Counted from the first letter of the stretch, positions 32,755 to 46,639 are shown. The stretch is 64,000 nt of DNA from Candidatus Woesearchaeota archaeon (GCA_019322375.1 JAHWIP010000003.1:6792-70791), one strand, 5' to 3'. Made by a program: numbers and translations. The notes: generated by a model from the letters alone, not told the origin.

Positions 32755-33042
32755 ATGGATAAAAAAGCCCAGGGTCTGAGTATGAATGTTATTATAATAG
32801 CAGCAATAGCTCTTTTAGTGCTTATCATTCTTGCTGTTCTTATCCTGAGAGCAGGTAAAGGAGTGACTGAAGGTACAGGGTGCAGAGGTGTTGGAGGAAT
32901 TTGTTATTCTAGCTGCACAGACTTGATTGAGGACAGAGGCGGAATGTGGGTTAAGAATCTTCCTAACAGCGGAAAGAATGGTGGCTGTTCAATAGACCAG
33001 GTTTGCTGTGTTGAACTATTAGAAACACCTGAGGATTACTAA
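32755..33042 (+). CDS. Small pilin-like Cys-rich protein (class III signal peptide KAQG|LSMNVIIIAAIALLVLIIL)
   Basis: 95 aa; SD AGGTGA upstream; 8 Cys ending in the VCC motif. Paralog of the next two genes. Confidence 0.55.
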   Translation: MDKKAQGLSMNVIIIAAIALLVLIILAVLILRAGKGVTEGTGCRGVGGICYSSCTDLIEDRGGMWVKNLPNSGKNGGCSIDQVCCVELLETPEDY

Positions 33043-33044
33043 AA

Positions 33045-33335
33045 ATGAAGTTCTTGAATAATAAGAAAGGAGTCCAGCTAACCCTTTCTACAGTGGTTAT
33101 TGCAGTGCTTGTAATCATTGTGCTCATAGTGTTGATAGTGATTTTTACCCAGGGAACAGGCTTGTTCAACATAGGAATAACCAGCTGCGCTGATAGGGGA
33201 GGTAATTGTAATTACGAATCAGCAGATCAATGCGTTGATACTGGCGGCAGTGTTTACAGGTTTGGCAAGTGCACCGACGGGGTTTGCTGTATTCCTAAGG
33301 ACAAGCTTTCAGGGCAAGATGATAATCAAGACTAA
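33045..33335 (+). CDS. Small pilin-like Cys-rich protein (KKG|VQLTLSTVVIAVLVIIVL)
   Basis: 96 aa; Cys pattern C..C....C....G..C..GVCC shared with its neighbours. Confidence 0.55.
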   Translation: MKFLNNKKGVQLTLSTVVIAVLVIIVLIVLIVIFTQGTGLFNIGITSCADRGGNCNYESADQCVDTGGSVYRFGKCTDGVCCIPKDKLSGQDDNQD

Positions 33336-35157
33336 TAAGAAGAGGGCTGAGCTCACTATAACCCAAGTAGTACTCATGGTTCTGGGTGTAGTTGTTCTTA
33401 TTGTGCTGCTTTTTGTTTTGAAAATAATACCCACAGGAATTAGAAGTCTTACGAGCTGCTCTGACTGGGGGCAGTGCAGGCCAGGAAATGTTTGCGCACC
33501 AAATGAATACATAAAATTTGAAGCAAAGGATGACTGTCCTGCAAACCATGTGTGCTGCGTGCCTACAACCACAAGGCCAGGACCTCTTCAGGATTTTAAT
33601 GAAAAAGAGCTTGAATACCTGAGAAATGCTATTATCATAAAGCTTAACAATGACCCTACGCCTATAAGCGATGTAGCAAGCCTTAACTTAAAAGTTGATA
33701 CTAATTATACATTTCGTATAAGTATTAATGATAAGCTCACCAAGGATAAAAAAACAAGTGAAAAGCTTGGCCCTTGCGCTGTTTATGTGGTTGACACAAG
33801 AGAAGCAGGCAAGAAATATTTATTAACAAATAAAGGCTGGGACTTGATTCTTTCTGACAAAGAGATTGATTTGAGCGGCATAGAGCTGGCTGAGTGCACT
33901 GAAGAAAGCATTAGGTTAAAAAAATATTCTCCTTCACTAAATGATGTTTACAAGGACTTGGTGCTGTATGTTATTCTTTTGGATAAGGAAGTTGTTGATG
34001 CACTTGAAGTATTAGAAACACACGACCCTGGCTTTGTTAAACTAACTGCTCCTGGGTTTGGCAGTGGAATTAATCTCCCTGATAGGGGGATGGCAGCTTT
34101 TTATAATCTCACAACAATGTACAGCAATGTTGACCACTGGCTTGCTTACAGAGCCATAAGACTTAATGTTGAGCCAGTAGTCCAGATTAGTGGTATGAGC
34201 GGAATATGGGTTGACAAGGACCCAATAACCATATCCTGCCCTGATGTTACCTGCATCAGGTTTGGCTTAAAACTAGTGAAACTAAAAGACAATGATTATT
34301 TACAGTTGGTAGAAGAGTGCAAGAAGCCAGAAGGCTTTAAGTACACTCTTGATTATGTTGCAGGAACAACAACAAAAACAACAGGCATACCATTGAACAT
34401 TAATATTGGAGGTTTCAGGATTCCTCCTCAAAGACAAAAACTCCAGTACATTGTAAGCCAAAAACCAATAACTGTTGTTAATAATAAAGCAGATGTTTTG
34501 ATTGACAGGGCTACCATGCTAAAAACCTTTTACTCAGGAGACCACGAGTTATTAATCGAGGACACTACTTATCTTTGCGTAGAAGCCACCAAGGATGACG
34601 GCTCAAAGGTTCATGGGCTCTCAGAGCAGCCTATTAAAGTGGATGTTTTTCCGCCCATGGTTGACCCTGACAAGGATGTGCAGTTATTTTATCCAGACCC
34701 AGTGATCTCATCAGACATATCAACCCCTTATTATTACAGGAAGTACCCTAAGATTGTTGTTTCTGGATGCTATGATTATGGCCAGAGCGGATGCACTAAT
34801 TATGATTACTATATTCATTCAGGAGAATTTGTTAATCTAAGGTCTCTGACAGCAGAGTGGGAGATAGGAATTGCTTCTTTGATACTAACAGAGGGCTTGA
34901 ATGCCCTGCTCACTTATTTTGCAGAAAAAGATGCTGTCAACACTATATGCCCGTTTATAACCAGCCATTCTTACACAAGAAACACCCGCAATGAGATAAG
35001 AATCCCAAGGCAAGGGCAGGGCATAATATGCATCAGGGTTAGTGACAAAGTAGGCAACAAAGACATTATCTGGAAGGTGCTCTGGACACCTGAAGAGATG
35101 TTCAAGAAAATTATTGCAGAAGGAGTGGCAGAGGCAGAAGAAGCAGTGACTGGATAG
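33319..35157 (+). CDS. Large pilin-like protein (KKRA|ELTITQVVLMVLGVVVLIVL) with an N-terminal Cys-knot-like module
   Basis: ATG at 33319 inside track ORF 33235-35157; the first 28 codons overlap the previous gene. Same C...HVCC module, then ~520 aa of unknown ectodomain. Confidence 0.55.
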   Translation: MIIKTNKKRAELTITQVVLMVLGVVVLIVLLFVLKIIPTGIRSLTSCSDWGQCRPGNVCAPNEYIKFEAKDDCPANHVCCVPTTTRPGPLQDFNEKELEYLRNAIIIKLNNDPTPISDVASLNLKVDTNYTFRISINDKLTKDKKTSEKLGPCAVYVVDTREAGKKYLLTNKGWDLILSDKEIDLSGIELAECTEESIRLKKYSPSLNDVYKDLVLYVILLDKEVVDALEVLETHDPGFVKLTAPGFGSGINLPDRGMAAFYNLTTMYSNVDHWLAYRAIRLNVEPVVQISGMSGIWVDKDPITISCPDVTCIRFGLKLVKLKDNDYLQLVEECKKPEGFKYTLDYVAGTTTKTTGIPLNINIGGFRIPPQRQKLQYIVSQKPITVVNNKADVLIDRATMLKTFYSGDHELLIEDTTYLCVEATKDDGSKVHGLSEQPIKVDVFPPMVDPDKDVQLFYPDPVISSDISTPYYYRKYPKIVVSGCYDYGQSGCTNYDYYIHSGEFVNLRSLTAEWEIGIASLILTEGLNALLTYFAEKDAVNTICPFITSHSYTRNTRNEIRIPRQGQGIICIRVSDKVGNKDIIWKVLWTPEEMFKKIIAEGVAEAEEAVTG

Positions 35158-35229
35158 CAAGTTAACTTAACATCTCCCTTCTTAATAAAACCGAAAGTTT
35201 ATTATAATTCTGTTATGATAGATTAGGAT

Positions 35230-35334
35230 ATGAAAAAAGGAGATTTGTCAACACTGGCAACTGTTATAATTATATTATTAACTCTTGTGTTTATAATCTT
35301 TATTTTCGGAAGAATCTATGGGTGGTGGGGTTGA
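35230..35334 (+). CDS. Tiny 34-aa pilin-like ORF (MKKGDLSTLATVIIILLTLVFIIFIFGRIYGWWG)
   Basis: KKG|DLSTL plus a hydrophobic helix only; below the ORF-track cutoff. Confidence 0.3.
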   Translation: MKKGDLSTLATVIIILLTLVFIIFIFGRIYGWWG

Positions 35335-35339
35335 AAAGG

Positions 35340-36299
35340 ATGAGCAGGATTAATAAAAAAGCAGGATTAAGCACATTACAAACAATTATCATTATCCTGC
35401 TCATATTTGTTGTTCTATTAATCTTTTACCAGGACTTAAGAGCAACTCTGTTAAAAAAATCTAACAGAGAGATATGCAGGGCTACTGCTCTTGCCCAGTC
35501 TGTTGCTGTGTGGGCGCCTGAAGGAGAGAATTTGGTTAGTCTTGAATGCAAGACTTACAAGGTTGTGTTTTTTGAAGACCATGTTGAGATTAATGATGAA
35601 ATAATTGAGGTGTATGACCCCAGGAAAAAAGATGTTGTTAAAAAGTTTAATGGCTTAACAGAGGACATTGTTAACTGGGTGATTGCAGAGGAGCTCAGAT
35701 GGTGCTGGTGGCAGTTTCTTGAAGGAAAAAAAAGCTTGTTAAACATGAAGAACTTTTTTGGCTCAGCAGAAAGAACCTGTTTTTTATGCACTGAAATAAC
35801 TTTTGATGAATCAGTTAAGACTGATGAATTCAAAAACTTCTTTAAGTACACCAAGGAAAAAACAATGCCTAATTCTGAAATGACTTATTACCAGTACTAT
35901 GCTGAGGAGCCCAGGAAGTGCATCTGGAGGTATGAAGAGATTATTGATGCAGATAATTGCTGGGAAGCCTATGCACAGGGCATCTCGCCTAATATAATAA
36001 CCAGCACTGTACAGCATTTTAAAGAGGCATTTAGCCATTGCTCAGGCATAATACCTGCTCTTTCAACTTACTGGTCTTCTGTAACGCATTATAGTGTTGT
36101 TAAAAACATAACCTTTGAGAAAGATAAAAAGTATGCTGTGACTTTTGTAAGGGAAGGAGCAACCTCAAGGCATCTTGAGCTAGAAAAATTAGTAAAAGGA
36201 GAGACTGATTGTTTTTTTGAAACTTATTTTTCATATGTAATCCCTTCTGATGAACTAGGAAAGCACTGCGGCCCTGTGAGAAGAGGCTCTATGAAATAA
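35340..36299 (+). CDS. Pilin-like protein (KKAG|LSTLQTIIIILLIFVVLLIF), paralog of 36301-37197
   Basis: ATG at 35340. Shared ectodomain pattern C....C...CWW..F..G...F.G...C..C..ITFDE with the next gene. Confidence 0.55.
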   Translation: MSRINKKAGLSTLQTIIIILLIFVVLLIFYQDLRATLLKKSNREICRATALAQSVAVWAPEGENLVSLECKTYKVVFFEDHVEINDEIIEVYDPRKKDVVKKFNGLTEDIVNWVIAEELRWCWWQFLEGKKSLLNMKNFFGSAERTCFLCTEITFDESVKTDEFKNFFKYTKEKTMPNSEMTYYQYYAEEPRKCIWRYEEIIDADNCWEAYAQGISPNIITSTVQHFKEAFSHCSGIIPALSTYWSSVTHYSVVKNITFEKDKKYAVTFVREGATSRHLELEKLVKGETDCFFETYFSYVIPSDELGKHCGPVRRGSMK

Positions 36300-36300
36300 A

Positions 36301-37197
36301 ATGAACAAGAAAGCCATTGTGTTTGACAAACTCATGACAGCTGTTCTGATAATCATTGTGCTGGCTGTTTTTATTTTTTTCCTGGTAAAGATAAAAATCC
36401 ATGCCTTAAAAATTGTTGAGGATTCTGAGTGCAAAGCAAGCATTATCAGCCATGCAACTCTTTTAAGGGTGACTGGAGAAGACACAACACCAGACATTCA
36501 CTGCCCTACCAAATATTATACTCTTCCAAAAGAAAGCAATGAAGAAATAAAGCATTATATTGCTGATTCATTAAAGACCTGCTGGGGAACCTGGGGCAAA
36601 GGAGAGCTTCAGTTATTTAACCAGCAAGGCTATTACTGCCATGTGTGCTCTGTGATTGATTTTGATGATAAAACAAAAAAAATACAAGGCCTGAACAATT
36701 ACCTGATTAATACGCCAACAGATAAAGATACCCCTCTCACATACATGGACTACCTCACAGGTTATGCATCTGAAAAAGCAGACCCTGCATTAATACAAGA
36801 GGTTCAGGAAAAAGGTTTTTCAGACACCATACACACTTCAAAGCCTTATGCAGTCATGTTTGTTTATGCCAAAGGAAAAACAGGTGTTAAAGCATTTCTT
36901 GATGGCATGGATGCTCTTGGCCTGGGAACAACAGGAGGAGGAATCACTACAGGGCTTGCACTGGGCTCAGCAGCAGGCATAGGGCTGGCAGCAGCAGGAG
37001 TGGCAAGTGGTGGAGCAGCAATTGTTATAGCAGGAGCAGTCACAGCTGCTGGCGGAGTGATAGGCTATATAACAGCAGATGATACTCACTGGATAGCCCT
37101 TACATTGTTCACAGAATACAATGCTGAAACCCTGAAAAGCATTGGGTGCGAGATAGCCCCTGCAAAGCAGGACAGAAAAACTGATGAAACTGGTTAA
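36301..37197 (+). CDS. Pilin-like protein with a shared Cys module and a C-terminal Gly/Ala-rich glycine-zipper hydrophobic segment
   Basis: 298 aa; the stop of the previous gene overlaps its ATG (TAAAATG); GLGTTGGGITTGLALGSAAGIGLAAAGVASGGAAIVIAGAVTAAGGVIGYI. Confidence 0.55.
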   Translation: MNKKAIVFDKLMTAVLIIIVLAVFIFFLVKIKIHALKIVEDSECKASIISHATLLRVTGEDTTPDIHCPTKYYTLPKESNEEIKHYIADSLKTCWGTWGKGELQLFNQQGYYCHVCSVIDFDDKTKKIQGLNNYLINTPTDKDTPLTYMDYLTGYASEKADPALIQEVQEKGFSDTIHTSKPYAVMFVYAKGKTGVKAFLDGMDALGLGTTGGGITTGLALGSAAGIGLAAAGVASGGAAIVIAGAVTAAGGVIGYITADDTHWIALTLFTEYNAETLKSIGCEIAPAKQDRKTDETG

Positions 37198-37280
37198 AAA
37201 ACTTAATTTGGTGATTTAGTTAAAGCGAAAGCATTAAAAAACACAAAAGCATAAAAAATCTTGAAACAAGAGGTTTTAAC

Positions 37281-37442
37281 ATGAGTTATGGCATGAACCG
37301 TATGAACAAGAAAGCCCAGGAAACAATGAGTCCTGAAGGCGGCACACTAAGAATAATATGGTTTGTGATTGTCTTATTAGTACTTATTATTATTGTTTAT
37401 TTTGTTGCAACAAATTTTAAACTAATCAAACTGCCATTTTGA
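37281..37442 (+). CDS. Small 53-aa pilin-like ORF (…NKKAQETMSPEGGTLRIIWFVIVLLVLIIIVYFVATNF…)
   Basis: Manually translated 54 codons; charged N-region then a hydrophobic helix; below the ORF-track cutoff. Confidence 0.3.
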   Translation: MSYGMNRMNKKAQETMSPEGGTLRIIWFVIVLLVLIIIVYFVATNFKLIKLPF

Positions 37443-37451
37443 GGTTAAGAA

Positions 37452-38285
37452 ATGAAGCTGATAAATGCTATTGGTGCCATTGTTTTAGGATTGTTTGTAT
37501 TAATTATACTAATCCTGATATTTGTTCCAAACACATTCAAAATTGTTAATAATATCTTTCTTATTATTGGCCAACAATTAGGCTTTAACCCAGCAGTTCC
37601 TGGAGGTGAAGACTATGGCTTTGGAGGGCTTTATGGAAGCACACCATCAACTATTCCAACTGATGCTGAGCCAGAGCGTATTAAAAAAGTCAAAACAAAG
37701 CCAGGCATTCCTGTTGATGAAAAATATTTTGGAGAGCTCTACTCTTATTCCAGGGAAGGAGCACTTGTTGACACCATTGTACTGCACCACACAGGGGATA
37801 ATAAAGCTTCGCAAACATTCAATACTCTGAAAAAAAGAGAGCTTTCAGTGCATTATGTTGTTGACAAGGACGGCACAATATATTACTTGATAGATGAGAG
37901 CACAAAAGGCGCTCATTGCGGTTGCTGCCCGCCAAGCAACCCGACTTGTTGCAAAGCAGGAGAAAACTGTCCTGTTTGCCTGAATGAAGAATTAAGAGAA
38001 ATGAATGCCAAATCAATAGGCATTGAAATTGTTAACACAGGATATGCAGATGATTACTACACTAATGAGCAATATGTTTCAATAGATAAACTGATAAATG
38101 ATATTGCAAGCAGATGGACTGCTATTGCTGTTGATAATGAGCATGTGCTTGGGCATTACCAGATTACACTGGGTAAGTGGGATCCTTCACCTGTTTTTAA
38201 ATGGGCAAGAATACAAGGATTGTCAGGCCACTTAATGCTTGCAGACATAGGAAAAAAAGCACCCTCTGAATACGGCTATACATGA
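37452..38285 (+). CDS. Membrane-anchored N-acetylmuramoyl-L-alanine amidase (Amidase_2 / T7-lysozyme / PGRP fold) with a Cys-rich insertion
   Basis: TIVLHHTGD (Zn His), SVHYVVDKDGTIYYLIDE...AHCG, NAKSIGIEIVNTG, VLGHYQITLGKWDPSP. These align with T7 lysozyme AIFVHCSAT / VGYHFIIKRDGTV / NHNSIGVCLVGG / AHHEVAPKACPSFD. A CCPPSNPTCCKAGENCPVC insert is present. N-terminal TM. Confidence 0.7.
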   Translation: MKLINAIGAIVLGLFVLIILILIFVPNTFKIVNNIFLIIGQQLGFNPAVPGGEDYGFGGLYGSTPSTIPTDAEPERIKKVKTKPGIPVDEKYFGELYSYSREGALVDTIVLHHTGDNKASQTFNTLKKRELSVHYVVDKDGTIYYLIDESTKGAHCGCCPPSNPTCCKAGENCPVCLNEELREMNAKSIGIEIVNTGYADDYYTNEQYVSIDKLINDIASRWTAIAVDNEHVLGHYQITLGKWDPSPVFKWARIQGLSGHLMLADIGKKAPSEYGYT

Positions 38286-38352: not shown

Positions 38353-39081
38353 TTGCAAGAATTATATGAGATGAAACCCTTGTTTTCAAAGAATAAAAAA
38401 AAGAAAGGCTTGTCAACCCTTGGAACCATTATAGGACTAATACTTTTACTAGCAGTCCTGGCAATCTTTCTTCCGGTTATTCTTCGCGCAGGCAAAACAA
38501 CTGATGAAGTCCCCAAAGACATAATGGACCCTGTCAAGGCATGCCATGGAAAAGAGAGTGGTGAGGAATGTTATCTTGGCGGAATAGCTGGTTTTTGCAG
38601 GGATTTCAGGTGTGTTATAGAGACTTCAGCAAAAAACATGAAAGAATCAATAACTATTTTCAAGACAACTTTCAAGGACAGCATTGAGAATTGCCAGAAA
38701 GATGTAGCCCAGTGCCCTGAGGCAACAAAGGCTCTGGACTTAATGATTGGTTATTTCACAGATGCAGGGCTTGTTGTTCATAGATTAGCCTCAGACAGAG
38801 CAGAGTTCAGGCTATACCAGGAAAAAAACTTTTTAGGTATTGGAGGGCATAAAGCCTCTTTTGTTTTTTACGGCGATACTTGTGTAATAGAGAAGAAAGG
38901 GGATAATGATGTTCCTACATCGGGCAAAAACTTTAAGCTTGGGATCAAAAAAGAAAGCAAAGGTTTTGTAGTATATGACCTTGAAAAAACTGCTGCTGAA
39001 CTAGGCACTTTTATATCTTTCAGGCATCAAACCCAGAATGATGCAACCACCCCGGTCTGTGTTTATTACACTACAGATTAG
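38353..39081 (+). CDS. Pilin-like protein (KKKG|LSTLGTIIGLILLLAVLAIF)
   Basis: 242 aa; textbook class III signal peptide. Confidence 0.55.
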   Translation: MQELYEMKPLFSKNKKKKGLSTLGTIIGLILLLAVLAIFLPVILRAGKTTDEVPKDIMDPVKACHGKESGEECYLGGIAGFCRDFRCVIETSAKNMKESITIFKTTFKDSIENCQKDVAQCPEATKALDLMIGYFTDAGLVVHRLASDRAEFRLYQEKNFLGIGGHKASFVFYGDTCVIEKKGDNDVPTSGKNFKLGIKKESKGFVVYDLEKTAAELGTFISFRHQTQNDATTPVCVYYTTD

Positions 39082-39154: not shown

Positions 39155-39808
39155 TTGTTAACAAAATCAAGAAAAGGACTTTCCCTTTTAGGAATGCTTG
39201 GTGGTGTAATCATAGTAGTTGTACTGGTTATTGTTCTAATCAATATTTTCATTAACAGAGGAGCCAAGCCTCTGGAGAACATCACTGGAGAGATAATTAC
39301 CTGCGGAGGACTTGCAGGTGTTATTGGCGGGGGAGAAGGGGTTTGTATAAGCAAAAGCACTCTTTGCGACGGCCCAAAGCTTCCTAATCCTGAGTGCAAG
39401 GCTAGCAATCCTGACAAGCCTTATTGCTGTTTTAAACAAGCAGAGGGTGCTGAAGGCCCTCCTGGTTCTGGCCCGACGGCTTGTGTTAAGGATGTTGACC
39501 CCTGGGAACCTGTAATTGTTGAAGACGATTATGTTTGCGCTTCTAGTAAGGAGGCGTGCGAGCAGACTATGAATTTTGTTAATGTTCTGAATGAATGTGC
39601 TCAATTTAGTGAAGGTTGTGAATGCAAGGATGAAGTAGAAGGAATTGAGCACCCTTGTGAAGGCAATCTTAAATGGGCTCTTTTTGGCCTTGATAAATCT
39701 GAGCCTAAACATGAAGTTGTTATGAAATGCTATCCTGCTGTTAAGGAATGCGAGGATTCAAATGAATGTGAGCGTTGTGTTCCAAACCATTTTGAATGTG
39801 CAGAATAA
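39155..39808 (+). CDS. Pilin-like Cys-rich protein (SRKG|LSLLGMLGGVIIVVVLVIVL)
   Basis: 217 aa; ~20 Cys in the ectodomain. Confidence 0.55.
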   Translation: MLTKSRKGLSLLGMLGGVIIVVVLVIVLINIFINRGAKPLENITGEIITCGGLAGVIGGGEGVCISKSTLCDGPKLPNPECKASNPDKPYCCFKQAEGAEGPPGSGPTACVKDVDPWEPVIVEDDYVCASSKEACEQTMNFVNVLNECAQFSEGCECKDEVEGIEHPCEGNLKWALFGLDKSEPKHEVVMKCYPAVKECEDSNECERCVPNHFECAE

Positions 39809-39872: not shown

Positions 39873-41027
39873 ATGGCTTGGATGAATAAAAAAGGCGGTG
39901 AAAGACAGATTGGACTTAGCGAACTTACGCTTTATGTGTTTGTCATTCTGCTTATAGTTGTCTTATTTATTGTTAGCTATAGGTTTATCGGAGCTTTTCT
40001 CAGAGGAGGAGTTGATAAAGACACTGAGTCTAATTTTGTGTCACTGGCAGAGAACCTTGAGTTAATGATTGAGAAAGACGCAGGGTTTGAATACCAGACC
40101 ATGATTTTTTATATGAAAGAAAAGCATTTTGTGTTTGGCTTTACATCCAAGCAGGCTCTTTCCTCTTCTCCAGCAAAGCATTTTATGCCTGAGAAATGCA
40201 ATGAGCACTCATGCCTTTGCCTGTATAAAGAACCTGATGATGTAGCAGATGACAAGCCTGTCAAGTGCATATCTTTTGGGCACAAGGTTATTTTTCATGG
40301 CTATGACTTAAAAAAAGTGTCTGCTGCTCAGCTGGTTTATCCTGACCTAGGAGCAGAGCTGGGTGCGCGTGAGCAAGGAGAATCTTATTATTTATCTGAT
40401 TATCCTGAAACTATTTCTTTTTATATAGAAGGCTTGTTTATTGGCCCTTCACTAGACAATCCTCATGACCTTTACCTGGAAAAAATAGTTGCTAATAACA
40501 GGGTGCATGTTTTTGTGACTCCTGGCCTTAAGCAGGAAATGATAGAGACAAGGATTGAACTGTTATCTCCCTGCCCTTTTGATTCTGATGAAGAATGCAT
40601 GGGCAAGAGAAGAAACTCTGTTCTGGGCAGTAATGATTATTGTTTTTATGATGAGAGCCAGGCTAAGTGCTTGTTAAAAAAAGATGTGGATGCCTGTTCT
40701 TTCTCAGACAGAATTACACAGCCCTGTCTTTGCGGCTCTACATTTATAGACCCAGACACCAGGACAGAAGAAACCTATTGTTATCAAAAATCTGATAAAA
40801 GGATTTTTGTCCTTCCATTTGACTGCGATTCAGAGGAATTAAGAGAAAAAAAATGCCTTGCTTACTGCAGGGCAATCACTGATACAGAGGACTGCGACAC
40901 AAGAGAACAGGATTACTGTGATAAAGACCCTTGCGAGTTTGCTTCTAAAGAAAAGCCGTGCGAAGTGCGCCCATTAGGCAAAAAAACTTATTGTGCTTCT
41001 TACTCAAGGGATTACAGCATGGATTAA
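39873..41027 (+). CDS. Pilin-like Cys-rich protein (G|LSELTLYVFVILLIVVLFIV; Glu at +3)
   Basis: 384 aa; many Cys in the C-terminal half. Confidence 0.55.
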   Translation: MAWMNKKGGERQIGLSELTLYVFVILLIVVLFIVSYRFIGAFLRGGVDKDTESNFVSLAENLELMIEKDAGFEYQTMIFYMKEKHFVFGFTSKQALSSSPAKHFMPEKCNEHSCLCLYKEPDDVADDKPVKCISFGHKVIFHGYDLKKVSAAQLVYPDLGAELGAREQGESYYLSDYPETISFYIEGLFIGPSLDNPHDLYLEKIVANNRVHVFVTPGLKQEMIETRIELLSPCPFDSDEECMGKRRNSVLGSNDYCFYDESQAKCLLKKDVDACSFSDRITQPCLCGSTFIDPDTRTEETYCYQKSDKRIFVLPFDCDSEELREKKCLAYCRAITDTEDCDTREQDYCDKDPCEFASKEKPCEVRPLGKKTYCASYSRDYSMD

Positions 41028-41113: not shown

Positions 41114-41596
41114 ATGAGTTTTTATGATTTTAATAACAAGAAAGCCAGGAGCATGATTGCAACTTCTTTTTATGTATTATTTGGCTTGATGCTGGGAGCC
41201 TTTTTTGTGATAGCTGTTCTTGGAAGAGTTAAGGATGCTGTTGGTGATTCTGCTTATCATAAAAAGTTTTATTCCAGGGACCTGGCCTTGCTTGTTGATG
41301 CCTTGCATGCCAGCAATGGAAAGTTTGTTGTTGATTATGATGTTAATCTTCCAGACAACATGCTCCTGGACTTTGGTCTTGAGCCTGGAGCAGTCATCTT
41401 AACAGACCGCTCTGACACACTCATGGATAACAGGCATAAAACTGCTTTTTTGTTTGGGCATAATGATTATGTAAAAATAATTCCTGTCACAATTGACAAG
41501 AACATGCTTAAATTGTTAGTGGTGGCTGATAACAACACCATTACATTTGAAGAGAAAGGGATGGATGATTTAAGTACAAATGATAAAGAGGAGTGA
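41114..41596 (+). CDS. Pilin-like membrane-anchored protein
   Basis: 160 aa; KKARSMIATSFYVLFGLMLGAFFVIAVLG. Confidence 0.45.
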   Translation: MSFYDFNNKKARSMIATSFYVLFGLMLGAFFVIAVLGRVKDAVGDSAYHKKFYSRDLALLVDALHASNGKFVVDYDVNLPDNMLLDFGLEPGAVILTDRSDTLMDNRHKTAFLFGHNDYVKIIPVTIDKNMLKLLVVADNNTITFEEKGMDDLSTNDKEE

Positions 41597-41629: not shown

Positions 41630-42169
41630 ATGAGAATAATAAAAAAGAGGCTGAGCCTGAATAACAAAAAGGGGTTGGGAACTGAGGAGTGGCTTGAACT
41701 TCTGCCTTACATAGTGTTAACAGTGGTTGTAATGGTGGCTATTTTTGCCCTGATAAACCTTTTTGTTAATATTTCTGTTGATGTTAAGCCTGTTCAAAGG
41801 GAAGTTCTTTTCTACAGGCTGATGTATGCTCCTAACTCAATTATGTATATGGATAATCTTACTGGCAGGGTTCACCCTGGTGTTATTAGCTGGGATAATT
41901 TTACCAACCAGACCCTTGACAAATCTATTGCTTATGATTATGAAAGGCATATATCTGCAAAATTGATATTATATAACCTGGAAAAAGAGCCAATCAAAAC
42001 AGCTTATCTTAATGGGCTGTGGTTTAACCGCTTAGAGCCTTTGGCCAGGAGCAGGATTAAGGGTGCAGGCAGTGCAGAGCTCTACACCAAGAAAATCCCT
42101 GTTGTTTACAGGAGAAATGATGTGAACAGGGCAGGCTATCTTAAAGTTGAGATTATCATTCCAAACTAA
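41630..42169 (+). CDS. Pilin-like protein (KKG|LGTEEWLELLPYIVLTVVVMVAIFALINL; Glu at +4/+5)
   Basis: 179 aa; class III signal plus Glu5, like bacterial T4 pilins. Confidence 0.55.
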   Translation: MRIIKKRLSLNNKKGLGTEEWLELLPYIVLTVVVMVAIFALINLFVNISVDVKPVQREVLFYRLMYAPNSIMYMDNLTGRVHPGVISWDNFTNQTLDKSIAYDYERHISAKLILYNLEKEPIKTAYLNGLWFNRLEPLARSRIKGAGSAELYTKKIPVVYRRNDVNRAGYLKVEIIIPN

Positions 42170-42184
42170 CAGCGAGTGATTTGA

Positions 42185-42853
42185 ATGAGCAGTTTGATTA
42201 ATTCAAGAAAAGGCATGAAAACCATTGTGACAATATTATCAGTTGTCTTGTTAGTATTCATATTCATAATATTTATTTTTCTTTTCAGGCTTGGCGCCAG
42301 GAACAAGGCAGAAAGCATAGAATCAGATTTTTCCTCTGTAAGAACAGAGTTTTTGCTTAAAACCTTTTTAAGAACACCAGCTGTTATTAGTGATGATTAC
42401 CCTGTTGAAGACTTGTTCCCTGGCATAGGAGAAGGCATTACCAATGCAGACCTGGTATCATGGACATGTAGTAAGGATAAAGACAGGAATTACAAGACCT
42501 TGAAAAACTCAATAAACACTTTTTTTGATGAGGCATATGAAGATGACTGGGAAGCATGGATAATCTATTCTAATCCTAAAGTAAAAAAGAAGGGCTTTGG
42601 GCACAAGAGTTATCTTGAAGGGATTGAGAAAAGCATAAACCGCTTGCTAACAGCAGGACAGCTGGCTTTGCTAGCAGCCAAATCATCAGACCCAGCCAGC
42701 AGGGGATTAATCTTCAAGCTTTTTATAACTCCTTATCGTGAAGCAGGCTTTGGCTCCCAGGTGGTTCCTTGCCCAGACGGAGAACTAGCCCAGATAATGC
42801 TTTACTCCCACACAGCATTTATTGAAATAAAACACCTGAAAGGCTTAACATAA
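42185..42853 (+). CDS. Pilin-like protein (SRKG|MKTIVTILSVVLLVFIFIIFIF)
   Basis: 222 aa. Confidence 0.5.
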   Translation: MSSLINSRKGMKTIVTILSVVLLVFIFIIFIFLFRLGARNKAESIESDFSSVRTEFLLKTFLRTPAVISDDYPVEDLFPGIGEGITNADLVSWTCSKDKDRNYKTLKNSINTFFDEAYEDDWEAWIIYSNPKVKKKGFGHKSYLEGIEKSINRLLTAGQLALLAAKSSDPASRGLIFKLFITPYREAGFGSQVVPCPDGELAQIMLYSHTAFIEIKHLKGLT

Positions 42854-42865
42854 GATAAAATAAAA

Positions 42866-45800
42866 ATGGATAAAGTAAAACTGAGATTAAAAAACAGAAA
42901 AGCACAGGTTTACCCGCTTTTTGTAGTGGTCTTTACAATAGTGGCCTTGACAACAGCCCTTATTGGCTTGAGCAATGCAAAAGAGGTTACTGATTTATCT
43001 GGCAGGGAAATGCTTATCGGCACCAAGCAATCAGCTGTTTTTGCATCTCTTCAAGACGCAGATGCTGTTAGTTTATTCATAGAGCAGGCAGCAGAATTTG
43101 CAGGCCAGCAAGCCCTGGATAAAATAAGAAAATCATGCTTTTTTGGAGTTGATGAGGAACAAGAAGTTGATGAGTGGGAGTCTCCATGCGGCAAGTTTGT
43201 TTATCCTCTTTGGAGCACTAATGAAAATCTTTGCCTTCCTGATTGTGAAACAGCTTTTGTCAATGCCTTTAACAAGGATTTTTTAAGCCGAACAAACAAG
43301 TATTATGAGTTCACAAACATAGAGCTGCCTATTTCTTATAACATGAGCCTGGAAATACATGACAATCATTTTTTTGTTCATGGAACCTCTGACACAGAAC
43401 TAAGGATTAATGTGGTTGATATTCAGAGCAGGATTAAGTCTCCCCTGGCAATAGCCCAGACTTATGAGGAAGGCAGGCTTATCTGGCCTGTTGATTACTC
43501 TGACCACACAATCACCTCTTGCTTTGGTGAAAGAGATGTTGTTGGGGGGAGCAAATACCATCCTGCTGTTGATATCCGGGCTCCAAAAGGAACACCAGTG
43601 CTGGCAGCTGCTTTAGGAAAAGTGATTCTTACTGACCCTTGCTGGGGAAGAATTGTTATTAATCATGGCTCTGGCTTAAGCACAGAGTATCTTCACTTGG
43701 AAAAAATTGATGTTAAGGTTAATGATGATGTGGTGCAGGGACAAAGAATAGGAACTTCTGGCAGCAATGGCTGTGACACAAGAGAGTTTGTTCCGCACCT
43801 GCATTTTGGGGTTATATATCAAGGTGTTCAGTCACCCATGCATTATAAAGGGCAGGAAATAGTTTTGAGCAACAACCATATCCAGCCCATGTGCTTGATT
43901 GAAAAAGGGTATGCTGCTAAGCCAGAAAGCAACTGCAACCAGCTTGTGAACACAGACTTAGACAAGATTTGTGAATTGTATAATCTGCCAGAAGAATTTT
44001 TTGAATCATCAGAATCATCAAAGCCATCAGAGCCATCAGAACCAGACCAAGACACTTCTTCTGAAGAAAGTGCTGATGCAGAGAATGCTGGTGCAGAAAG
44101 TGTTAATGCAGAAAGCACTGAGCTGGATTATTCTCTGGCACAGGCTCCTGGCAGCTATGCTTTTAAACCATCTTTTACCTTGAGGGTTAACAAGAAAATA
44201 GAAAACCCTATTGAGCCAGTAACAGAGTGGTTTGAGAACACCTGGAACGAGTGCGAGGATGACCCTTGGAAATGTTTAAGAGAAAAAATGAGTGAGTTTA
44301 ATGAGCAGGACTATGATTACAAGCTCATGTTTGCTGACAGGTGCGAGGAAGGCTATCACTTGTTCTATGACATACTGGAGTTTTTTGAGGACTGCTTTTC
44401 AAACCAGAAGTATGGGTGCTCATGCGAGTTTAATTTATCAGATGCTTTTTCAATAACTGACTTGCGAATAGTTTTTGACACACAAGCAAACACAGCCTCT
44501 CTTTTTTCCAAGCAGGGAGATAAGCCTGGTGATGAATATGAATTAATTGATTCATACCAGTTCTATTATGGAAGCATAACCAAGCCAGCCCCTGCTTCTC
44601 CTTATAGGTATTATGTGTATCAGCTTGATTATGATGATTATGGGGAGCTGGAAAATGCAGAGCTTATGCAAATGAAGTCATTGCTTGATGTATTTGATGT
44701 TGTGCCTTTTTTTGATTACAAAGAACTAAGACTGGCAAAGCCAGGAGAGGCTGAGCAAGGATATTTTGTGAACACAGAAACAATTCAGTGCAAGTACAAG
44801 AAGAACAAGTTCAGGCTGTGTGCAAAGCCAGCACAGGAAAGAGAAGACTTGTTCCCTATAAGGTTTGCTTTTCACTTAAAAGACAAGCCTCCTGAGCCTG
44901 TTAAAAAAGGAGATGTGGAAATTATAGAGGTGGAGGAGAGTTCTGAGTCAGATGTTGACAAGGTAATGCAGGCAGCAGGCTTTCTAGGAACCATATTCCC
45001 TCCTCTAGGCTACTTGTTCACAGCAATTAATATTCTCAGTGTGTTGGAAGACTTTAAACCAAGAAAGTTCGAGGTAATAGTTGATGTTCCTCTTGACAAG
45101 GATGGCAAACCCCTGGATGTTGCTGGCTATGAAGTTTATTGCAGTGATTACCTGACAAACATCCTGCCAGTGGATGTTTTGGATAAATATAATCCAAGTC
45201 ATTTTGTTGTGATGGCTAATGATGAGATGAATAAAAAAGTAAGCCAGCTAGACCAGTATGTTAAGAAGAACCCTTACACAGACTTTCTGAATCTTGAGAG
45301 CTGTGATGTGCCTGTGAGCAAGTTCACAGGAGAAACCATTCTTGTGCCTGGAATCAAAGGGGTTGTTAAGGACGGTAAAATGGTTTTCAACCTTCATAAA
45401 TGCGGGGACTTGGCAATAATTATAGATAAACTAATAAGAAAAGACTACTGTGTATCACTAATACCTGTTGACAAGAATGGCAACAAGATAATGGAGCATG
45501 CTGTGAGCAACTGCGCGCAAACCAATTCACTGCTTGACCTGGTTATTAGTGAGATGATAGAGGAACAGCTAGGAGAATTTATTCCTGCAAGCCTTATACC
45601 TGATAATTTAAAGCCTTATATCAAGCTGCCTGACACAAGCGATATTGTTAATGCAGTAACAGGGGAAGGCAGTTTTGACATGATAGACATTGTTAATCTT
45701 GACAAGCTGGACGCAGACATAAAAAATTATCTTGAGGAATTCGTGGTTGGAACTATTAATGAAGACATAATAGGCACTTCTGTTGTTAATTCTATTGATG

Positions 45801-46639
45801 ACTTAAAGCTCTGGGAAAAACAAACAGTGCTTAACACCCTGTCAAACCAGATAAAAAATGATGATGCAAAAACCTTGTTTGATGCCTTTGTAACAGGAGA
45901 AGGTGTTGCTGAGTCTGCCAAGCGCATGGCTTATGAAAAAGGAGTAGGATATATAGACCAGACAAAAACACCTGAGATACTTAAGGAGATAGCCAAAGGA
46001 GAAGACCCTAAAAGCCTTGCATACCAGGAACTGGTAAAAGCAGCTGAGAAAGAGCTCAGCACTGACGAGAAAAAACAGGCTCTGCTGGAGATAGCCAGGA
46101 GCAGCAGTGGAAGAGAGGTAAAAGATAAGATAATAGAAAAAGCCCTTGAAAAAGGATGCGGCGAGTCATATGGAATAAGTGCAGAGCAGGCAATCAACTG
46201 CCTTGACAATGAAGAGGTAGAAAATATTTATCACAAAGTTCTGACAGACTACAGCACACCAGACAAGGTAAAACAGTTTTTGCTTGACAAGGCAATTGAC
46301 AAGTTTGATGAAAAAACACCAGACGTGCTAAAAGAGATTGTTCTGAAAAGAGACTTTAAAGGAGCAGCAAAGGACATGCTTGAGAAAGAGCTTGACAAGC
46401 TTCCAGACGCTGTTAAGAAAGAGTTTATTACTGATATACTTGAAGGCAGGCTTCCAGATGTTGAGTACTTGCAGCAGGAACTAGTGAAAATGATACCAGC
46501 AGTAAACAATGAATATGTGAATGCCCTGCTAAAAGACGGCAATGTTAAAAACCTGATAGAATCAACCCTTAAATCAGAGATAGAAAAACAACTAGGCTCA
46601 TTCTTCTCAGATGAATGCGTGGCAATTAATAAGGATTGA
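42866..46639 (+). CDS. Giant (1257-aa) pilin-like protein carrying a LytM/M23 metallo-endopeptidase domain
   Basis: N-terminus NRKAQVYPLFVVVFTIVALTTALIGL. M23 motifs HPAVDIRAPKGTPVLAAALGKVIL...IVINHGSGLSTEYLHL...GQRIGTSGSNG...PHLHFGVIY (HxxxD ... HxH). S/E-rich linker repeats at ~43990-44110; long alpha-helical K/E-rich C-terminal region. Confidence 0.75.
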   Translation: MDKVKLRLKNRKAQVYPLFVVVFTIVALTTALIGLSNAKEVTDLSGREMLIGTKQSAVFASLQDADAVSLFIEQAAEFAGQQALDKIRKSCFFGVDEEQEVDEWESPCGKFVYPLWSTNENLCLPDCETAFVNAFNKDFLSRTNKYYEFTNIELPISYNMSLEIHDNHFFVHGTSDTELRINVVDIQSRIKSPLAIAQTYEEGRLIWPVDYSDHTITSCFGERDVVGGSKYHPAVDIRAPKGTPVLAAALGKVILTDPCWGRIVINHGSGLSTEYLHLEKIDVKVNDDVVQGQRIGTSGSNGCDTREFVPHLHFGVIYQGVQSPMHYKGQEIVLSNNHIQPMCLIEKGYAAKPESNCNQLVNTDLDKICELYNLPEEFFESSESSKPSEPSEPDQDTSSEESADAENAGAESVNAESTELDYSLAQAPGSYAFKPSFTLRVNKKIENPIEPVTEWFENTWNECEDDPWKCLREKMSEFNEQDYDYKLMFADRCEEGYHLFYDILEFFEDCFSNQKYGCSCEFNLSDAFSITDLRIVFDTQANTASLFSKQGDKPGDEYELIDSYQFYYGSITKPAPASPYRYYVYQLDYDDYGELENAELMQMKSLLDVFDVVPFFDYKELRLAKPGEAEQGYFVNTETIQCKYKKNKFRLCAKPAQEREDLFPIRFAFHLKDKPPEPVKKGDVEIIEVEESSESDVDKVMQAAGFLGTIFPPLGYLFTAINILSVLEDFKPRKFEVIVDVPLDKDGKPLDVAGYEVYCSDYLTNILPVDVLDKYNPSHFVVMANDEMNKKVSQLDQYVKKNPYTDFLNLESCDVPVSKFTGETILVPGIKGVVKDGKMVFNLHKCGDLAIIIDKLIRKDYCVSLIPVDKNGNKIMEHAVSNCAQTNSLLDLVISEMIEEQLGEFIPASLIPDNLKPYIKLPDTSDIVNAVTGEGSFDMIDIVNLDKLDADIKNYLEEFVVGTINEDIIGTSVVNSIDDLKLWEKQTVLNTLSNQIKNDDAKTLFDAFVTGEGVAESAKRMAYEKGVGYIDQTKTPEILKEIAKGEDPKSLAYQELVKAAEKELSTDEKKQALLEIARSSSGREVKDKIIEKALEKGCGESYGISAEQAINCLDNEEVENIYHKVLTDYSTPDKVKQFLLDKAIDKFDEKTPDVLKEIVLKRDFKGAAKDMLEKELDKLPDAVKKEFITDILEGRLPDVEYLQQELVKMIPAVNNEYVNALLKDGNVKNLIESTLKSEIEKQLGSFFSDECVAINKD

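What the first reader, a model, noticed from the sequence alone, without database searches (positions are those of the whole stretch)
32755..46639. 14-kb co-directional array of at least 16 class-III-signal-peptide (type IV pilin-like) genes that includes two peptidoglycan-hydrolase domains: a candidate pilus-borne cell-wall-attack system
Every gene from 32755 to 46639 is on the + strand, tightly spaced or overlapping, and starts with a short basic N-region, [KR][GA] and a ~20-aa hydrophobic helix (for example KKG|LSTLGTIIG, RKG|LSLLGML, KKG|LGTEEWLEL with Glu5). The substrates range from 34-aa mini-pilins to a 1257-aa giant. Embedded in the array are an Amidase_2 (MurNAc-L-Ala amidase) enzyme and an M23 (LytM) endopeptidase. 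Both act on bacterial murein, which archaea do not make. The rest of the window is unambiguously archaeal (histone, Hjc, EndA, NAC, Sec61-beta, RadA). One reading is that this is a pilus or surface filament decorated or tipped with murein-degrading enzymes. It could serve to attach to or breach a bacterial partner or prey, or a pseudomurein-containing host, or to harvest cell-wall material. No pilus ATPase or prepilin peptidase lies inside the locus, so it may be serviced by a distant FlaI/PibD, or by the FlaJ-like gene at 26-1891.
Basis: partly seen in the sequence, partly recalled or inferred. Interest (0 to 1): 0.85.

Follow-up and report, generated by a model that had tools for sequence, protein, structure and literature searches.

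The report
Pilin-like gene array with murein hydrolases
A tiny uncultured archaeon (Woesearchaeota) carries a conserved 15-gene operon of pilus-subunit-like surface proteins mixed with enzymes that cut bacterial cell walls, which looks like equipment for attaching to or feeding on bacteria.

Summary
Window 32755-46639 carries 15 (not 16 or more) co-directional, tightly packed genes. Fourteen start with a basic stretch, then [KR][GA], then a hydrophobic helix. This is the archaeal prepilin (class III) layout. Amidase_2 (g8) and M23 (g15) are real and their catalytic residues are intact. The amidase itself lacks the prepilin motif.

The contig is a Ca. Woesearchaeota MAG. The array is chromosomal and vertically inherited. 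The same gene order, always followed by RPA/YdjM (RadA where the contig reaches that far), recurs in at least 8 further lineages. The murein-active domains are swapped between lineages: M23, SLT, Amidase_2, Amidase_3, YkuD and a weak GH73/phage-lysin-like domain. This makes bacterial peptidoglycan the likely substrate.

A type IV filament machine lies about 31 kb upstream. It has a FlaJ-like platform at 26-1891, its own pilin-like genes, and a T2SSE ATPase immediately upstream in homologous loci. g1 has a helix far more conserved than its head, as in major pilins.

No array protein matches a known pilin family. The g13 model shows no pilin fold match. No prepilin peptidase was seen. A filament that carries the hydrolases is therefore plausible but unproven. 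A bindosome-like anchored enzyme complex is the main rival.

Verdict: new variant of a known kind.

The parts
32755..33042 (+). g1, 95 aa. N-terminus MDKKA|QGLSMNVIIIAAIALLVL..., followed by a 6-Cys knob. Candidate major filament subunit.
   Evidence: ORF and motif. Across 8 lineages the helix has 66% mean pairwise identity and the head 31%.
33045..33335 (+). g2, 96 aa. N-terminus NKKG|VQLTLSTVVIAVL..., followed by a 6-Cys knob. Built like g1.
33319..35157 (+). g3, 612 aa. N-terminus NKKRA|ELTITQVV..., then a Cys knob and a large domain with no family match.
   Evidence: Orthologues are 41-50% identical.
35230..35334 (+). g4, 34 aa. Sequence MKKG|DLSTLATVIIILL...; a helix-only mini-subunit.
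   Evidence: A mini-ORF is kept at this position in 6 other lineages. Four of them (L002, L004, L009, L014) carry MKK[GA].
35340..36299 (+). g5, 319 aa. N-terminus NKKA|GLSTLQTIIIIL... Distant paralogue of g6, with conserved Cys residues.
   Evidence: The g5-g6 BLASTP E-value is 5e-8.
36301..37197 (+). g6, 298 aa. N-terminus MNKKA|IVFDKLMTAVLII... The C-terminus is a roughly 50-aa Gly/Ala-rich hydrophobic stretch.
   Evidence: The same tail is present in L015 2337-3275.
37281..37442 (+). g7, 53 aa. N-terminus NKKA|QETMSPEGG..., then a helix. Mini-subunit.
   Evidence: A 43-55 aa orthologue with KK[GA] is present in every lineage.
37452..38285 (+). g8, 277 aa. MurNAc-L-Ala amidase (Amidase_2) behind a plain N-terminal helix with no [KR][GA] motif. 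This position is a swappable cargo slot.
   Evidence: Pfam E 4.3e-25, AmpD-like in NCBIfam, phage endolysin families, conserved H/H/K/D residues. In other lineages the slot holds a GH73-like or a TPR protein.
38371..39081 (+). g9, 236 aa. N-terminus KKKKG|LSTLGTIIGLILLL..., with a Cys-containing head.
39155..39808 (+). g10, 217 aa, TTG start. N-terminus SRKG|LSLLGMLGGVIIV..., with a Cys-rich head.
   Evidence: Orthologues keep [KR]KG|M, which supports the upstream TTG start.
39873..41027 (+). g11, 384 aa. N-terminus NKKG|GERQIGLSELTLYVFVIL...
41114..41596 (+). g12, 160 aa. N-terminus NNKKA|RSMIATSFYVLF... Acts as a carrier module: in L015 it is fused to Amidase_3 and to g13.
   Evidence: The L015 fusion is a 618-aa protein with Amidase_3 at E 2.5e-7.
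41630..42169 (+). g13, 179 aa. N-terminus NNKKG|LGTEEWLE..., with Glu at +5. The most conserved core protein of the array and founder of a large uncharacterised family.
42185..42853 (+). g14, 222 aa. N-terminus NSRKG|MKTIVTILSVVLL...
42866..46639 (+). g15, 1257 aa. N-terminus KNRKA|QVYPLFVVVF..., then an N-domain, an M23 endopeptidase (231-321), an acidic linker that is the insertion site for SLT or Amidase_2 in relatives, and about 830 aa that match nothing.
   Evidence: Pfam, NCBIfam, homologues, alignment, PDB profile search. The hydrophobic patch near residue 700 is not conserved, so it is not a second membrane span.
26..1891 (+). FlaJ/TadC-like platform protein, 9 predicted membrane spans. 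An ORF running in from upstream of the window stops at nt 38 and is probably the ATPase gene.
   Evidence: No Pfam or PDB sequence hit. Homologues of 65-66% identity directly follow a 570-aa T2SSE ATPase. The first bases of the window are read.
3019..9744 (+). Eight genes for proteins with one N-terminal helix. This is the machine's own pilin-like set. Four carry the [KR][GA] motif.
   Evidence: The same run follows the ATPase and platform genes in L016. No sequence similarity to the array.

Best explanation
The locus is a vertically inherited Woesearchaeal operon. Its products are exported with archaeal prepilin-type (class III) N-termini.

Inferred steps:
1. A prepilin peptidase encoded elsewhere trims them after [KR][GA].
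2. The type IV filament machine whose platform gene lies at 26-1891, with a T2SSE ATPase just upstream of the window, assembles them into a filament or a short pseudopilus.
3. g1, with g2 built the same way, is the likely main subunit. g4 and g7 are helix-only mini-subunits. g5, g6, g9-g12 and g14 are minor or adaptor subunits.
4. g15 behaves like a giant 'modular pilin': a carrier N-terminus fused to an M23 endopeptidase and a long unknown domain.
5. Together with the membrane-anchored amidase g8, the structure brings murein-cutting enzymes into contact with the wall of a bacterium. This lets the wall-less, metabolically poor archaeon attach to, breach or feed on that bacterium.

Shown: operon structure and conservation, N-terminal motifs, intact hydrolase domains, swapping of murein-specific domains between lineages, and the presence of a type IV filament machine on the same contig.

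Inferred only: cleavage, filament formation, the position of the hydrolases on the filament, and the bacterial target.
For: 1. N-terminal motif. 14 of 15 ORFs have a charged residue at -2 and G/A at -1 directly before the hydrophobic domain. These are the criteria given for archaeal prepilins, whose proven sites include KGQV, RAQI, KAIS and RAVS (PMC4371748). g1, g7 and g15 have KA|Q, the EppA-type +1 Gln. g13 keeps Glu at +5.
2. Conservation of the motif. It holds through orthologues of 40-67% identity and in arrays whose g13 is only about 30% identical.
3. g1 helix. It has 66% mean pairwise identity against 31% for its head. g13 and g15 show no such excess. A conserved hydrophobic domain is the mark of filament-forming pilins (PMC4371748).
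4. Machine on the same contig. Homologues of the 26-1891 protein follow a T2SSE ATPase, and in L016 they precede the same run of small pilin-like genes. Archaeal ATPase/TadC pairs are known to serve pilin sets encoded elsewhere (PMC4858521).
5. Murein as substrate. The same positions hold M23+SLT, M23+Amidase_2, Amidase_2, Amidase_3 fused between g12 and g13, YkuD, and a weak GH73/phage-lysin-like domain. The catalytic residues are intact.
6. Carrier-plus-effector design. It is seen in g15 and in the L015 g12-Amidase_3 fusion. It parallels bacterial modular pilins (PMC8179133) and the Sulfolobus bindosome.
7. g13 model. The helix starts exactly at the predicted +1 residue and carries a globular head, giving a 'lollipop' shape.
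Against: - No array protein matches any Pfam or NCBIfam pilin, archaellin or class III signal model, even at relaxed E-values.
- In g7, g11 and g13, 8-12 polar residues separate the putative cleavage site from the hydrophobic helix. This is atypical.
- g8, the amidase, lacks the motif.
- No ATPase, platform or prepilin peptidase gene lies in the array in any lineage examined. No peptidase was seen anywhere in the window.
- The machine 31 kb away has its own pilin-like genes, which are unrelated to the array.
- No host is known for this lineage.
Confidence: 0.5

Rival explanations
1. Bindosome-like anchored complex. The proteins do carry class III signal peptides and use the type IV filament machinery or peptidase. 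They form a cell-surface, envelope-embedded enzyme complex and not an extended pilus. The hydrolases stay at the archaeal surface and digest murein of touching cells or wall debris, for nutrient scavenging.
For: The Sulfolobus bindosome is a precedent: large non-pilin proteins with prepilin sites assembled by pilus machinery. Most array proteins are much larger than pilins. The heads are not pilin folds. g8 is simply membrane-anchored. Woesearchaeota are predicted to scavenge cell material (PMC9723730).
Against: The g1 helix is twice as conserved as its head. The tiny helix-only g4 and g7 are conserved. Both features are easier to explain by helix-helix packing in a filament core than by anchoring.
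Confidence: 0.28
2. Ordinary signal anchors. The N-termini are uncleaved Sec signal anchors that follow the positive-inside rule and happen to have a small residue next. The operon encodes a set of single-span membrane proteins, an envelope complex with murein hydrolases, that has nothing to do with type IV filaments.
For: No pilin family hits. No pilin fold for g13. No machinery genes in the locus. Polar spacers follow the motif in g7, g11 and g13. In the L015 fusion the KKG lies in an internal loop between two membrane helices.
Against: G/A at -1 with K/R at -2 is kept in 14 families across deep divergence. It occurs in only 1-2 of 6 other single-span proteins of the window. +1 Gln and +5 Glu are conserved. 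Sequence conservation of the g1 helix goes beyond what hydrophobicity alone needs.
Confidence: 0.17
3. Own-wall remodelling. These archaea make a murein-like wall, and the operon is their autolysin or cell-division hydrolase system.
For: The array is chromosomal, vertically inherited and sits next to core genes (RPA, RadA). A SpoIIM-like membrane protein stays nearby. A processive GT2 glycan synthase is in the window.
Against: No Mur ligase, MraY, MurG or PBP gene is in the window. Published surveys treat murein hydrolases in these lineages as aimed at bacteria, and murein as absent from archaea (PMC8204110, PMC12352652). Free swapping of six hydrolase types is typical of offensive or scavenging enzymes, not of a house-keeping divisome.
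Confidence: 0.03
4. Mobile element. The array is an integrated virus or mobile-element module, for example a lysis or entry cassette.
For: The hydrolase domains are most similar to phage endolysins, tape-measure proteins and internal proteins. GC content is slightly higher than in the flanks.
Against: The same position between conserved chromosomal genes is kept in at least 8 lineages. Eight of the ten proteins scanned hit no PHROG family. The g15 C-terminal 829 aa have no match in 50,697 phage genomes. There is no integrase, tRNA or repeat boundary.
Confidence: 0.02

Closest known systems
Archaeal type IV pili with many class III signal-peptide proteins (Epd pili of Methanococcus maripaludis; 'system 1' and clade 1 loci; PMC4858521, PMC4371748, preprint 10.64898/2026.04.22.720090)
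   Same: Both have K[GA]|Q-type sites. Both have many minor-pilin-like genes in one co-directional cluster. Both include a large protein predicted to sit at the tip. In both, ATPase/platform pairs can serve pilin sets encoded elsewhere.
   Different: None of the array proteins belongs to a described pilin family. No ATPase, platform or peptidase gene lies in the cluster. The cluster carries murein hydrolases, which the archaeal filament surveys I read do not mention.
Sulfolobus bindosome (Bas system)
   Same: Large enzymes or binding proteins that are not pilins by descent carry prepilin-type N-termini and depend on pilus-type machinery.
   Different: Bindosome subunits are sugar-binding proteins for uptake. 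Here the cargo is wall-degrading enzymes. The accessory proteins are unrelated.
Bacterial modular pilins (Streptococcus sanguinis PilB/PilC, CofB, TcpB, GspK; PMC8179133)
   Same: Both use a carrier N-terminus plus a grafted effector module, probably at the tip. Peptidase modules are predicted in some bacterial cases.
   Different: These are bacterial, with a recognisable pilin module (IPR012902). M23, SLT and amidase effectors were not among the architectures described. For g15 a pilin module could not be shown, because the AlphaFold model was poor.
Large extracellular murein lytic-transglycosylase proteins of Pacearchaeota and Woesearchaeota (fam00969, PMC8204110) and GH23 genes of 'vampiristic' Woesearchaeota (PMC9723730)
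   Same: Same phylum. Both are giant secreted proteins with murein-cleaving domains, and both come with the proposed role of acting on bacterial partners. Relatives of g15 carry the SLT domain.
   Different: The window's g15 has M23 but no SLT. Those papers do not describe the pilin-like operon, the prepilin-type N-termini or the domain swapping, and neither paper contains the words pili or pilin.
Multidomain wall hydrolases of Gram-positive conjugation systems (PrgK type: LytM + SLT + CHAP behind an N-terminal membrane helix; from my own knowledge) and phage tape-measure or internal proteins with M23 or SLT
   Same: Both have an N-terminal anchor followed by stacked M23 and SLT domains, used to punch locally through a wall. 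PDB and PHROG hits of g15 include such phage proteins.
   Different: Those act from inside or on the donor's own wall, or belong to virions. No VirB4 or VirD4 ATPases or phage genes are present here.
Secreted archaeal peptidoglycan hydrolases Woldo and Danwoldo (Halogranum; PMC12352652)
   Same: Both are archaeal M23-type or glycosidase enzymes aimed at bacteria. That survey also noted M23 homologues in four Nanoarchaeia genomes.
   Different: Those are soluble Tat-secreted proteins with PG_binding_1 domains and stand-alone genes. That survey scored only Sec and Tat signals, so prepilin-type export was not considered.

Membership tests
Archaeal type IV pilin-like proteins (class III signal peptide substrates) | G/A/S at -1 and a charged residue at -2, placed before (not after) the hydrophobic domain, near the N-terminus (PMC4371748) | tested here: met
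   14 of 15 ORFs meet it. It is conserved in orthologues and in distant arrays. g8 fails.
Archaeal type IV pilin-like proteins (class III signal peptide substrates) | Hydrophobic domain of about 20 residues starting at or right after the cleavage site | tested here: inconclusive
   Met in g1-g6, g9, g10, g12, g14 and g15. In g7, g11 and g13, 8-12 polar or acidic residues intervene.
Archaeal type IV pilin-like proteins (class III signal peptide substrates) | Match to curated pilin, archaellin or class III signal models (Pfam, NCBIfam) | tested here: not met
   No such family at E<=0.1 in Pfam or E<=1 in NCBIfam for any array protein. Only sub-threshold Flp1_like hits on the helix.
Archaeal type IV pilin-like proteins (class III signal peptide substrates) | Pilin architecture: long N-terminal helix protruding from a globular beta-rich head, with structural similarity to solved pilins | tested here: inconclusive
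Archaeal type IV pilin-like proteins (class III signal peptide substrates) | Cleavage by a prepilin peptidase (PibD, FlaK or EppA) and incorporation into a filament | not testable with these tools
   No A24 peptidase gene is in the window.
Type IV filament machinery (ATPase + platform) | A polytopic PilC/TadC/FlaJ-type platform gene paired with a T2SSE-family ATPase gene | tested here: inconclusive
   The 26-1891 protein has 9 predicted spans but no T2SSF hit in Pfam or PDB. Its 65-66% identical homologues sit directly after a 570-aa PF00437 ATPase. The window begins inside the preceding ORF, so the ATPase itself is unseen.
Peptidase M23 (LytM/lysostaphin-type murein endopeptidases) | Pfam PF01551 above the gathering score, with HxxxD and HxH zinc and catalytic motifs | tested here: met
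   76.5 bits against a cut-off of 28.7. H232, D236, H311 and H313 are invariant. The best PDB relatives are Pgp3-type M23, DipM and ShyA.
Amidase_2 (MurNAc-L-alanine amidase, AmpD/T7 lysozyme/PGRP type) | Pfam PF01510 above the gathering score, with His/His/Asp(Cys) zinc ligands | tested here: met
   89 bits against a cut-off of 26. H112/H113, H235, K242 and D244 are invariant in three orthologues. Phage endolysin families reach E 7e-17.
Woesearchaeota/Pacearchaeota large murein-LT proteins (fam00969 of PMC8204110) | Very large extracellular protein with a lytic transglycosylase (SLT/GH23) domain | tested here: not met
   The window's g15 has no SLT. Its homologues P0006, P0008-P0010 and L014 have SLT inserted after M23. 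Whether they are fam00969 members could not be checked.

The most novel reading that the evidence does not exclude
Woesearchaeota build a dedicated type IV filament. Its tip or shaft carries an exchangeable arsenal of murein hydrolases: M23, SLT, two amidase families, YkuD and a GH73-like domain. The archaeon uses it to drill through the cell wall of bacterial hosts or prey. This would be the first defined molecular apparatus for an archaeon living on bacteria. The roughly 940-cluster g13 family would serve as its genomic marker.
Probability: 0.3. Interest if true: 0.85.

Novelty: new variant of a known kind. Interest (0 to 1): 0.68.

Why it matters
Woesearchaeota and their relatives make up a large part of archaeal diversity. 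They have tiny genomes and no cultured member, and nobody knows their hosts. Large murein hydrolases have been the only hint that some live on bacteria.

This locus puts those enzymes into a defined, conserved 15-gene operon of prepilin-like proteins, next to core genes and on the same contig as a pilus-type machine. Three things follow.

1. It gives a concrete, testable model of how an archaeon could engage a bacterial wall.
2. It gives a genomic marker for finding such lineages: the g13 family together with RPA/YdjM synteny.
3. It gives a set of enzymes whose substrate specificity could point to the host's wall chemistry.

It would also extend the 'modular pilin' and bindosome principle to wall-degrading effectors. 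Surveys of archaeal peptidoglycan hydrolases that score only Sec and Tat signals would undercount exported enzymes.

Tried and rejected
Steps that led nowhere:
- AlphaFold2 of g15 residues 1-700 with 10 homologues gave mean pLDDT 56.6. It was too poor for fold search and I did not use it.
- The afdb50 fold library was unavailable.
- The FlaJ-like protein gave no Pfam, NCBIfam or PDB sequence hit. A metagenome scan with it found nothing. Its role rests on synteny only.
The narrow alignment gave only 4 genome loci.
- I could not reach the NCBI contig upstream of the window. Look-ups with two window proteins (g8 and the 3019-3441 gene) returned only short Logan contigs. The ATPase and any prepilin peptidase of this genome therefore remain unseen.
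- The paper that defines the FlaFind rules is not held. I used the criteria as summarised in PMC4371748.

Hypotheses rejected:
- A second membrane span in g15 near residue 700. The stretch is not conserved and contains charged residues in homologues.
- Viral or mobile origin (plus the conserved chromosomal synteny).
- Homology between the array and the machine-adjacent pilin cluster.
- Pseudomurein as the target. Amidase_2, Amidase_3, SLT and GH73 act on MurNAc-containing glycan, which pseudomurein lacks. This rests on established knowledge. In addition, PMC12352652 reports that archaeal PG hydrolases are nearly absent from pseudomurein producers.

Full report
**What is there**

Between 32755 and 46639 the window carries 15 ORFs on the + strand. 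They overlap or are at most 86 nt apart, and there is no convincing gene on the other strand. I call them g1 to g15; coordinates are in the parts list.

A simple script looked for [KR][GA] in the first 45 residues, followed within 14 residues by a hydrophobic window of at least 19 residues. It finds this in 14 of the 15 ORFs. The exception is g8, the amidase, which starts with a plain hydrophobic helix. Of the six proteins with one N-terminal helix that lie outside the two pilin-like clusters of the window, the script flags one. I would add a second by eye (58923-61412, NRA|MIGLV). By my own hypergeometric arithmetic the enrichment has P about 0.002 (0.01 with two).

Its examples are correct: KKG|LSTLGTIIG, RKG|LSLLGML, and KKG|LGTEEWLEL with Glu at +5.

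**The enzymes**

- g8 matches Amidase_2 at E 4.3e-25, 89 bits against a cut-off of 26. It also matches AmpD and phage endolysin families. His112/113, His235, Lys242 and Asp244 are invariant among three orthologues.
- g15 matches Peptidase_M23 at E 1.8e-21 and many murein endopeptidase families. The HxxxD and HxH residues (H232, D236, H311, H313) are invariant in ten homologues.
- Nothing else in the array hits Pfam, NCBIfam or PHROGs.

**Whose genome**

An archaeal RNase P RNA lies directly upstream, at 32269-32573 on the minus strand. g15 is 100% identical to an NCBI protein of 'Candidatus Woesearchaeota archaeon' on a 71-kb contig. Every named relative found is Woesearchaeota or Nanoarchaeota, apart from one MAG labelled Methanosarcinales whose locus has the same Woesearchaeal layout.

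**Conservation**

The contigs that encode homologues of g15 show the same gene order and sizes in L002, L004, L007, L008 (partial), L009 and L014. BLASTP gives one-to-one orthologues at 30-67% identity.

Wherever the contig extends past the array it is followed by the RPA gene. Further downstream come YdjM (CARDB/YdjM in most close relatives), RadA, TRAM and LigT in the same order. It is therefore chromosomal and vertically inherited, not a mobile island.

A profile of the most conserved small protein, g13, finds 941 cluster representatives at E<=1e-3 and 449 at E<=1e-10 among 1.84 billion proteins. Almost all are about 170 aa and match full length. Three distant members were looked up:

- L015 and L018 again show a long co-directional array ending next to RPA and YdjM.
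- L017 shows the array, but its contig ends too early to see the flank.

The 34-aa g4 looked doubtful but is real. An MKK[GA]+helix mini-ORF sits before g5 in L002, L004, L009 and L014, although it was not called there. L007 and L015 have a 35-40-aa helix-only ORF at that position without the motif.

**The hydrolase domains are swapped, and all act on murein**

| Lineage | g8 slot | g15 slot / other |
|---|---|---|
| Window | Amidase_2 | M23 |
| L007, L014 | Amidase_2 | M23 + SLT |
| P0006, P0008-P0010 | not examined | M23 + SLT inserted at the acidic linker of the window protein |
| L004 | weak Glucosaminidase (GH73) match, E 3.6e-4 | M23 + Amidase_2 at the same insertion point |
| L009 | weak GH73 match, E 1.4e-3 | M23 |
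| L002 | orthologue of the L004/L009 protein, no Pfam hit of its own | M23 |
| L015 | TPR protein with an NKKA N-terminus | g12-Amidase_3-membrane helix-g13 fusion, plus a short M23 protein |
| L018 | not determined | YkuD (L,D-transpeptidase fold) protein with an AKKG\|Q N-terminus |

The GH73 matches are below the Pfam threshold. A profile of the L002, L004 and L009 proteins weakly hits two phage proteins, one of them named a cell wall hydrolase.

Six different murein-specific catalytic folds at fixed positions of one conserved operon are hard to explain unless peptidoglycan is the substrate. Most of these folds act on MurNAc-containing glycan or its stem peptide. Pseudomurein lacks MurNAc (established knowledge), so bacterial murein is the likely target.

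**Are the N-termini prepilin signals?**

The published criteria for archaeal prepilins are these: G/A/S at -1; a charged residue at -2; a site that precedes the hydrophobic domain; and, for EppA substrates, +1 Gln and often +5 Glu. Proven sites include KGQV, RAQI, KAIS, KGIS and RAVS (PMC4371748).

All 14 motif-bearing proteins meet the first three criteria. g1, g7 and g15 have KA|Q. g13 keeps Glu at +5 in five of six lineages and at +4 in the sixth. The motif survives where the rest of the protein has diverged to about 30% identity.

The g1 helix is unusually conserved. It has 66% mean pairwise identity over the first 27 mature residues, against 31% for the Cys-rich head, across eight lineages. 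g13 and g15 show no such excess. A conserved hydrophobic domain is what filament-forming pilins show, for example Haloferax PilA1-6. A mere anchor would not need it. g1 is small, comes first in the operon and is duplicated in L018, so it is my candidate major subunit.

Against this reading:

- No array protein matches any curated pilin or class III model.
- g7, g11 and g13 have 8-12 polar residues between the site and the helix.
- The g15 model failed.

**Is there a machine?**

None lies in the array, in any lineage. The window does start with a 621-aa protein with 9 membrane spans (26-1891), followed by eight genes for single-helix proteins (3019-9744). The 621-aa protein has no Pfam or PDB sequence match. 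It does have 99 homologues, nearly all in Woesearchaeota.

In the two homologous loci examined (65-66% identity) it lies directly after a roughly 570-aa T2SSE ATPase. In L016 it also lies before the same run of small genes. In the window an ORF enters from upstream and stops at nt 38, overlapping the start of the platform gene.

The contig therefore encodes a type IV filament machine about 31 kb from the array. Archaeal ATPase/TadC pairs are thought to serve several pilin sets, including sets encoded elsewhere (PMC4858521). The machine-adjacent proteins are not related to the array proteins. No prepilin peptidase is in the window, and the rest of the genome was out of reach.

**Interpretation**

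The best reading is a type-IV-filament-dependent surface structure that presents murein hydrolases to bacteria (confidence about 0.5). In this reading g1 (with g2 built the same way) is the main subunit, g4 and g7 are mini-subunits, g5, g6 and g9-g14 are minor or adaptor subunits, and g15 is a giant modular subunit. The carrier-plus-effector design of g15, and of the g12-Amidase_3 fusion, parallels bacterial modular pilins (PMC8179133).

Rivals, in order of weight:

1. A bindosome-like complex that uses the same export and processing route but forms no extended filament (0.28).
2. The motifs are ordinary signal anchors (0.17).
3. Own-wall remodelling (0.03).
4. A mobile element (0.02).

The last two are unlikely for the reasons given under the rival explanations.

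**Relation to the literature**

Three points were already published:

- Large murein lytic-transglycosylase proteins in Pace- and Woesearchaeota, with the idea of episymbiosis with bacteria (PMC8204110).
- GH23 genes plus pore-forming toxins in 'vampiristic' Woesearchaeota (PMC9723730).
- A survey of archaeal peptidoglycan hydrolases that found M23 homologues in four Nanoarchaeia genomes but scored only Sec and Tat signals (PMC12352652).

None of these mentions pilins or this operon. A 2026 survey of archaeal type IV filament systems does not mention peptidoglycan or hydrolases. Within what I could search, the following are new:

- the conserved operon;
- the prepilin-type N-termini on the hydrolases and their partners;
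- the swappable cargo slots;
- the large g13 family.

I rate this a new variant of a known kind, with interest 0.68.

Noticed in passing
window 48092-50200 (-) and 50267-52498 (-): A full-length bacterial-type sigma-70 (regions 1.2, 2, 3, 4) and a 743-aa HATPase_c_3 protein sit between RPA and the CARDB/YdjM genes. Relatives L002, L004 and L007 lack both genes at this place, so they look like an insertion. Sigma-70 in Woesearchaeota has been reported before (PMC8204110).
   Followed up: partly
window 32269-32573 (-): An archaeal RNase P RNA (Rfam RF00373, 121 bits) lies directly upstream of the first array gene. It explains the short spurious ORFs listed there.
   Followed up: yes
window 36301-37197 (g6, C-terminal ~50 aa); L015 2337-3275: g6 and its orthologues end in a Gly/Ala-rich hydrophobic stretch (GLGTTGGGITTGLALGSAAGIGLAAAGVASGGAAIVIAG...). 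It resembles the glycine-zipper segments of membrane-inserting proteins. It could be a second anchor or a membrane-perturbing element.
   Followed up: no
window g1 32755-33042, g2 33045-33335, g3 N-terminal part, g10 39155-39808; also L015, L017, L018: A small knob with six conserved cysteines (C..GG.C...C......C...CC) follows the N-terminal helix in several array proteins and is conserved across lineages. It matched no family.
   Followed up: partly
window 57768-58808 (-); L004 19605-20651, L007 17542-18585, L008 9365-10405, L009 16154-17197: An 8-span SpoIIM-like (PF01944, weak) membrane protein stays a few kb downstream of the array in all close relatives. In Bacillus, SpoIIM scaffolds the engulfment murein hydrolases. 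Whether this link means anything here is unknown.
   Followed up: no
window 20286-24530 (+): Two large polytopic membrane proteins are followed by a GT2 glycosyltransferase with a QRKRW (QxxRW-type) motif. This motif is typical of processive beta-glycan synthases such as chitin, cellulose or NodC-type enzymes.
   Followed up: no
window 58923-61412 (-) and 8128-9744 (+): Two large secreted proteins have class-III-like N-termini (NRA|MIGLVLMV and GKKA|NVLAAVLV) and very Cys-rich segments. Prepilin-type export may therefore be common in this organism's surface proteome.
   Followed up: no
window 31196-32199 (-): A HEPN and nucleotidyltransferase (MNT-type) gene pair, a typical toxin-antitoxin-like module, lies between the core genes and the RNase P RNA.
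   Followed up: no
L015 9998-11854: One 618-aa ORF fuses g12, an Amidase_3 domain, a membrane helix, a basic loop ending in SKKG, and g13. If the loop is a real prepilin site, the fusion would be cut into two proteins. If it is not, the KKG motif here is only a cytoplasmic loop.
   Followed up: partly
window 3019-4327 (+), 6629-8074 (+); L016 12050-13804: Several proteins next to the platform gene start directly with M-E/Q-x-V-E-I... and a helix, with no basic leader. This gives an acidic residue at about position 5, as if they were 'pre-trimmed' pilins. u1 and u2 are paralogues.
   Followed up: no
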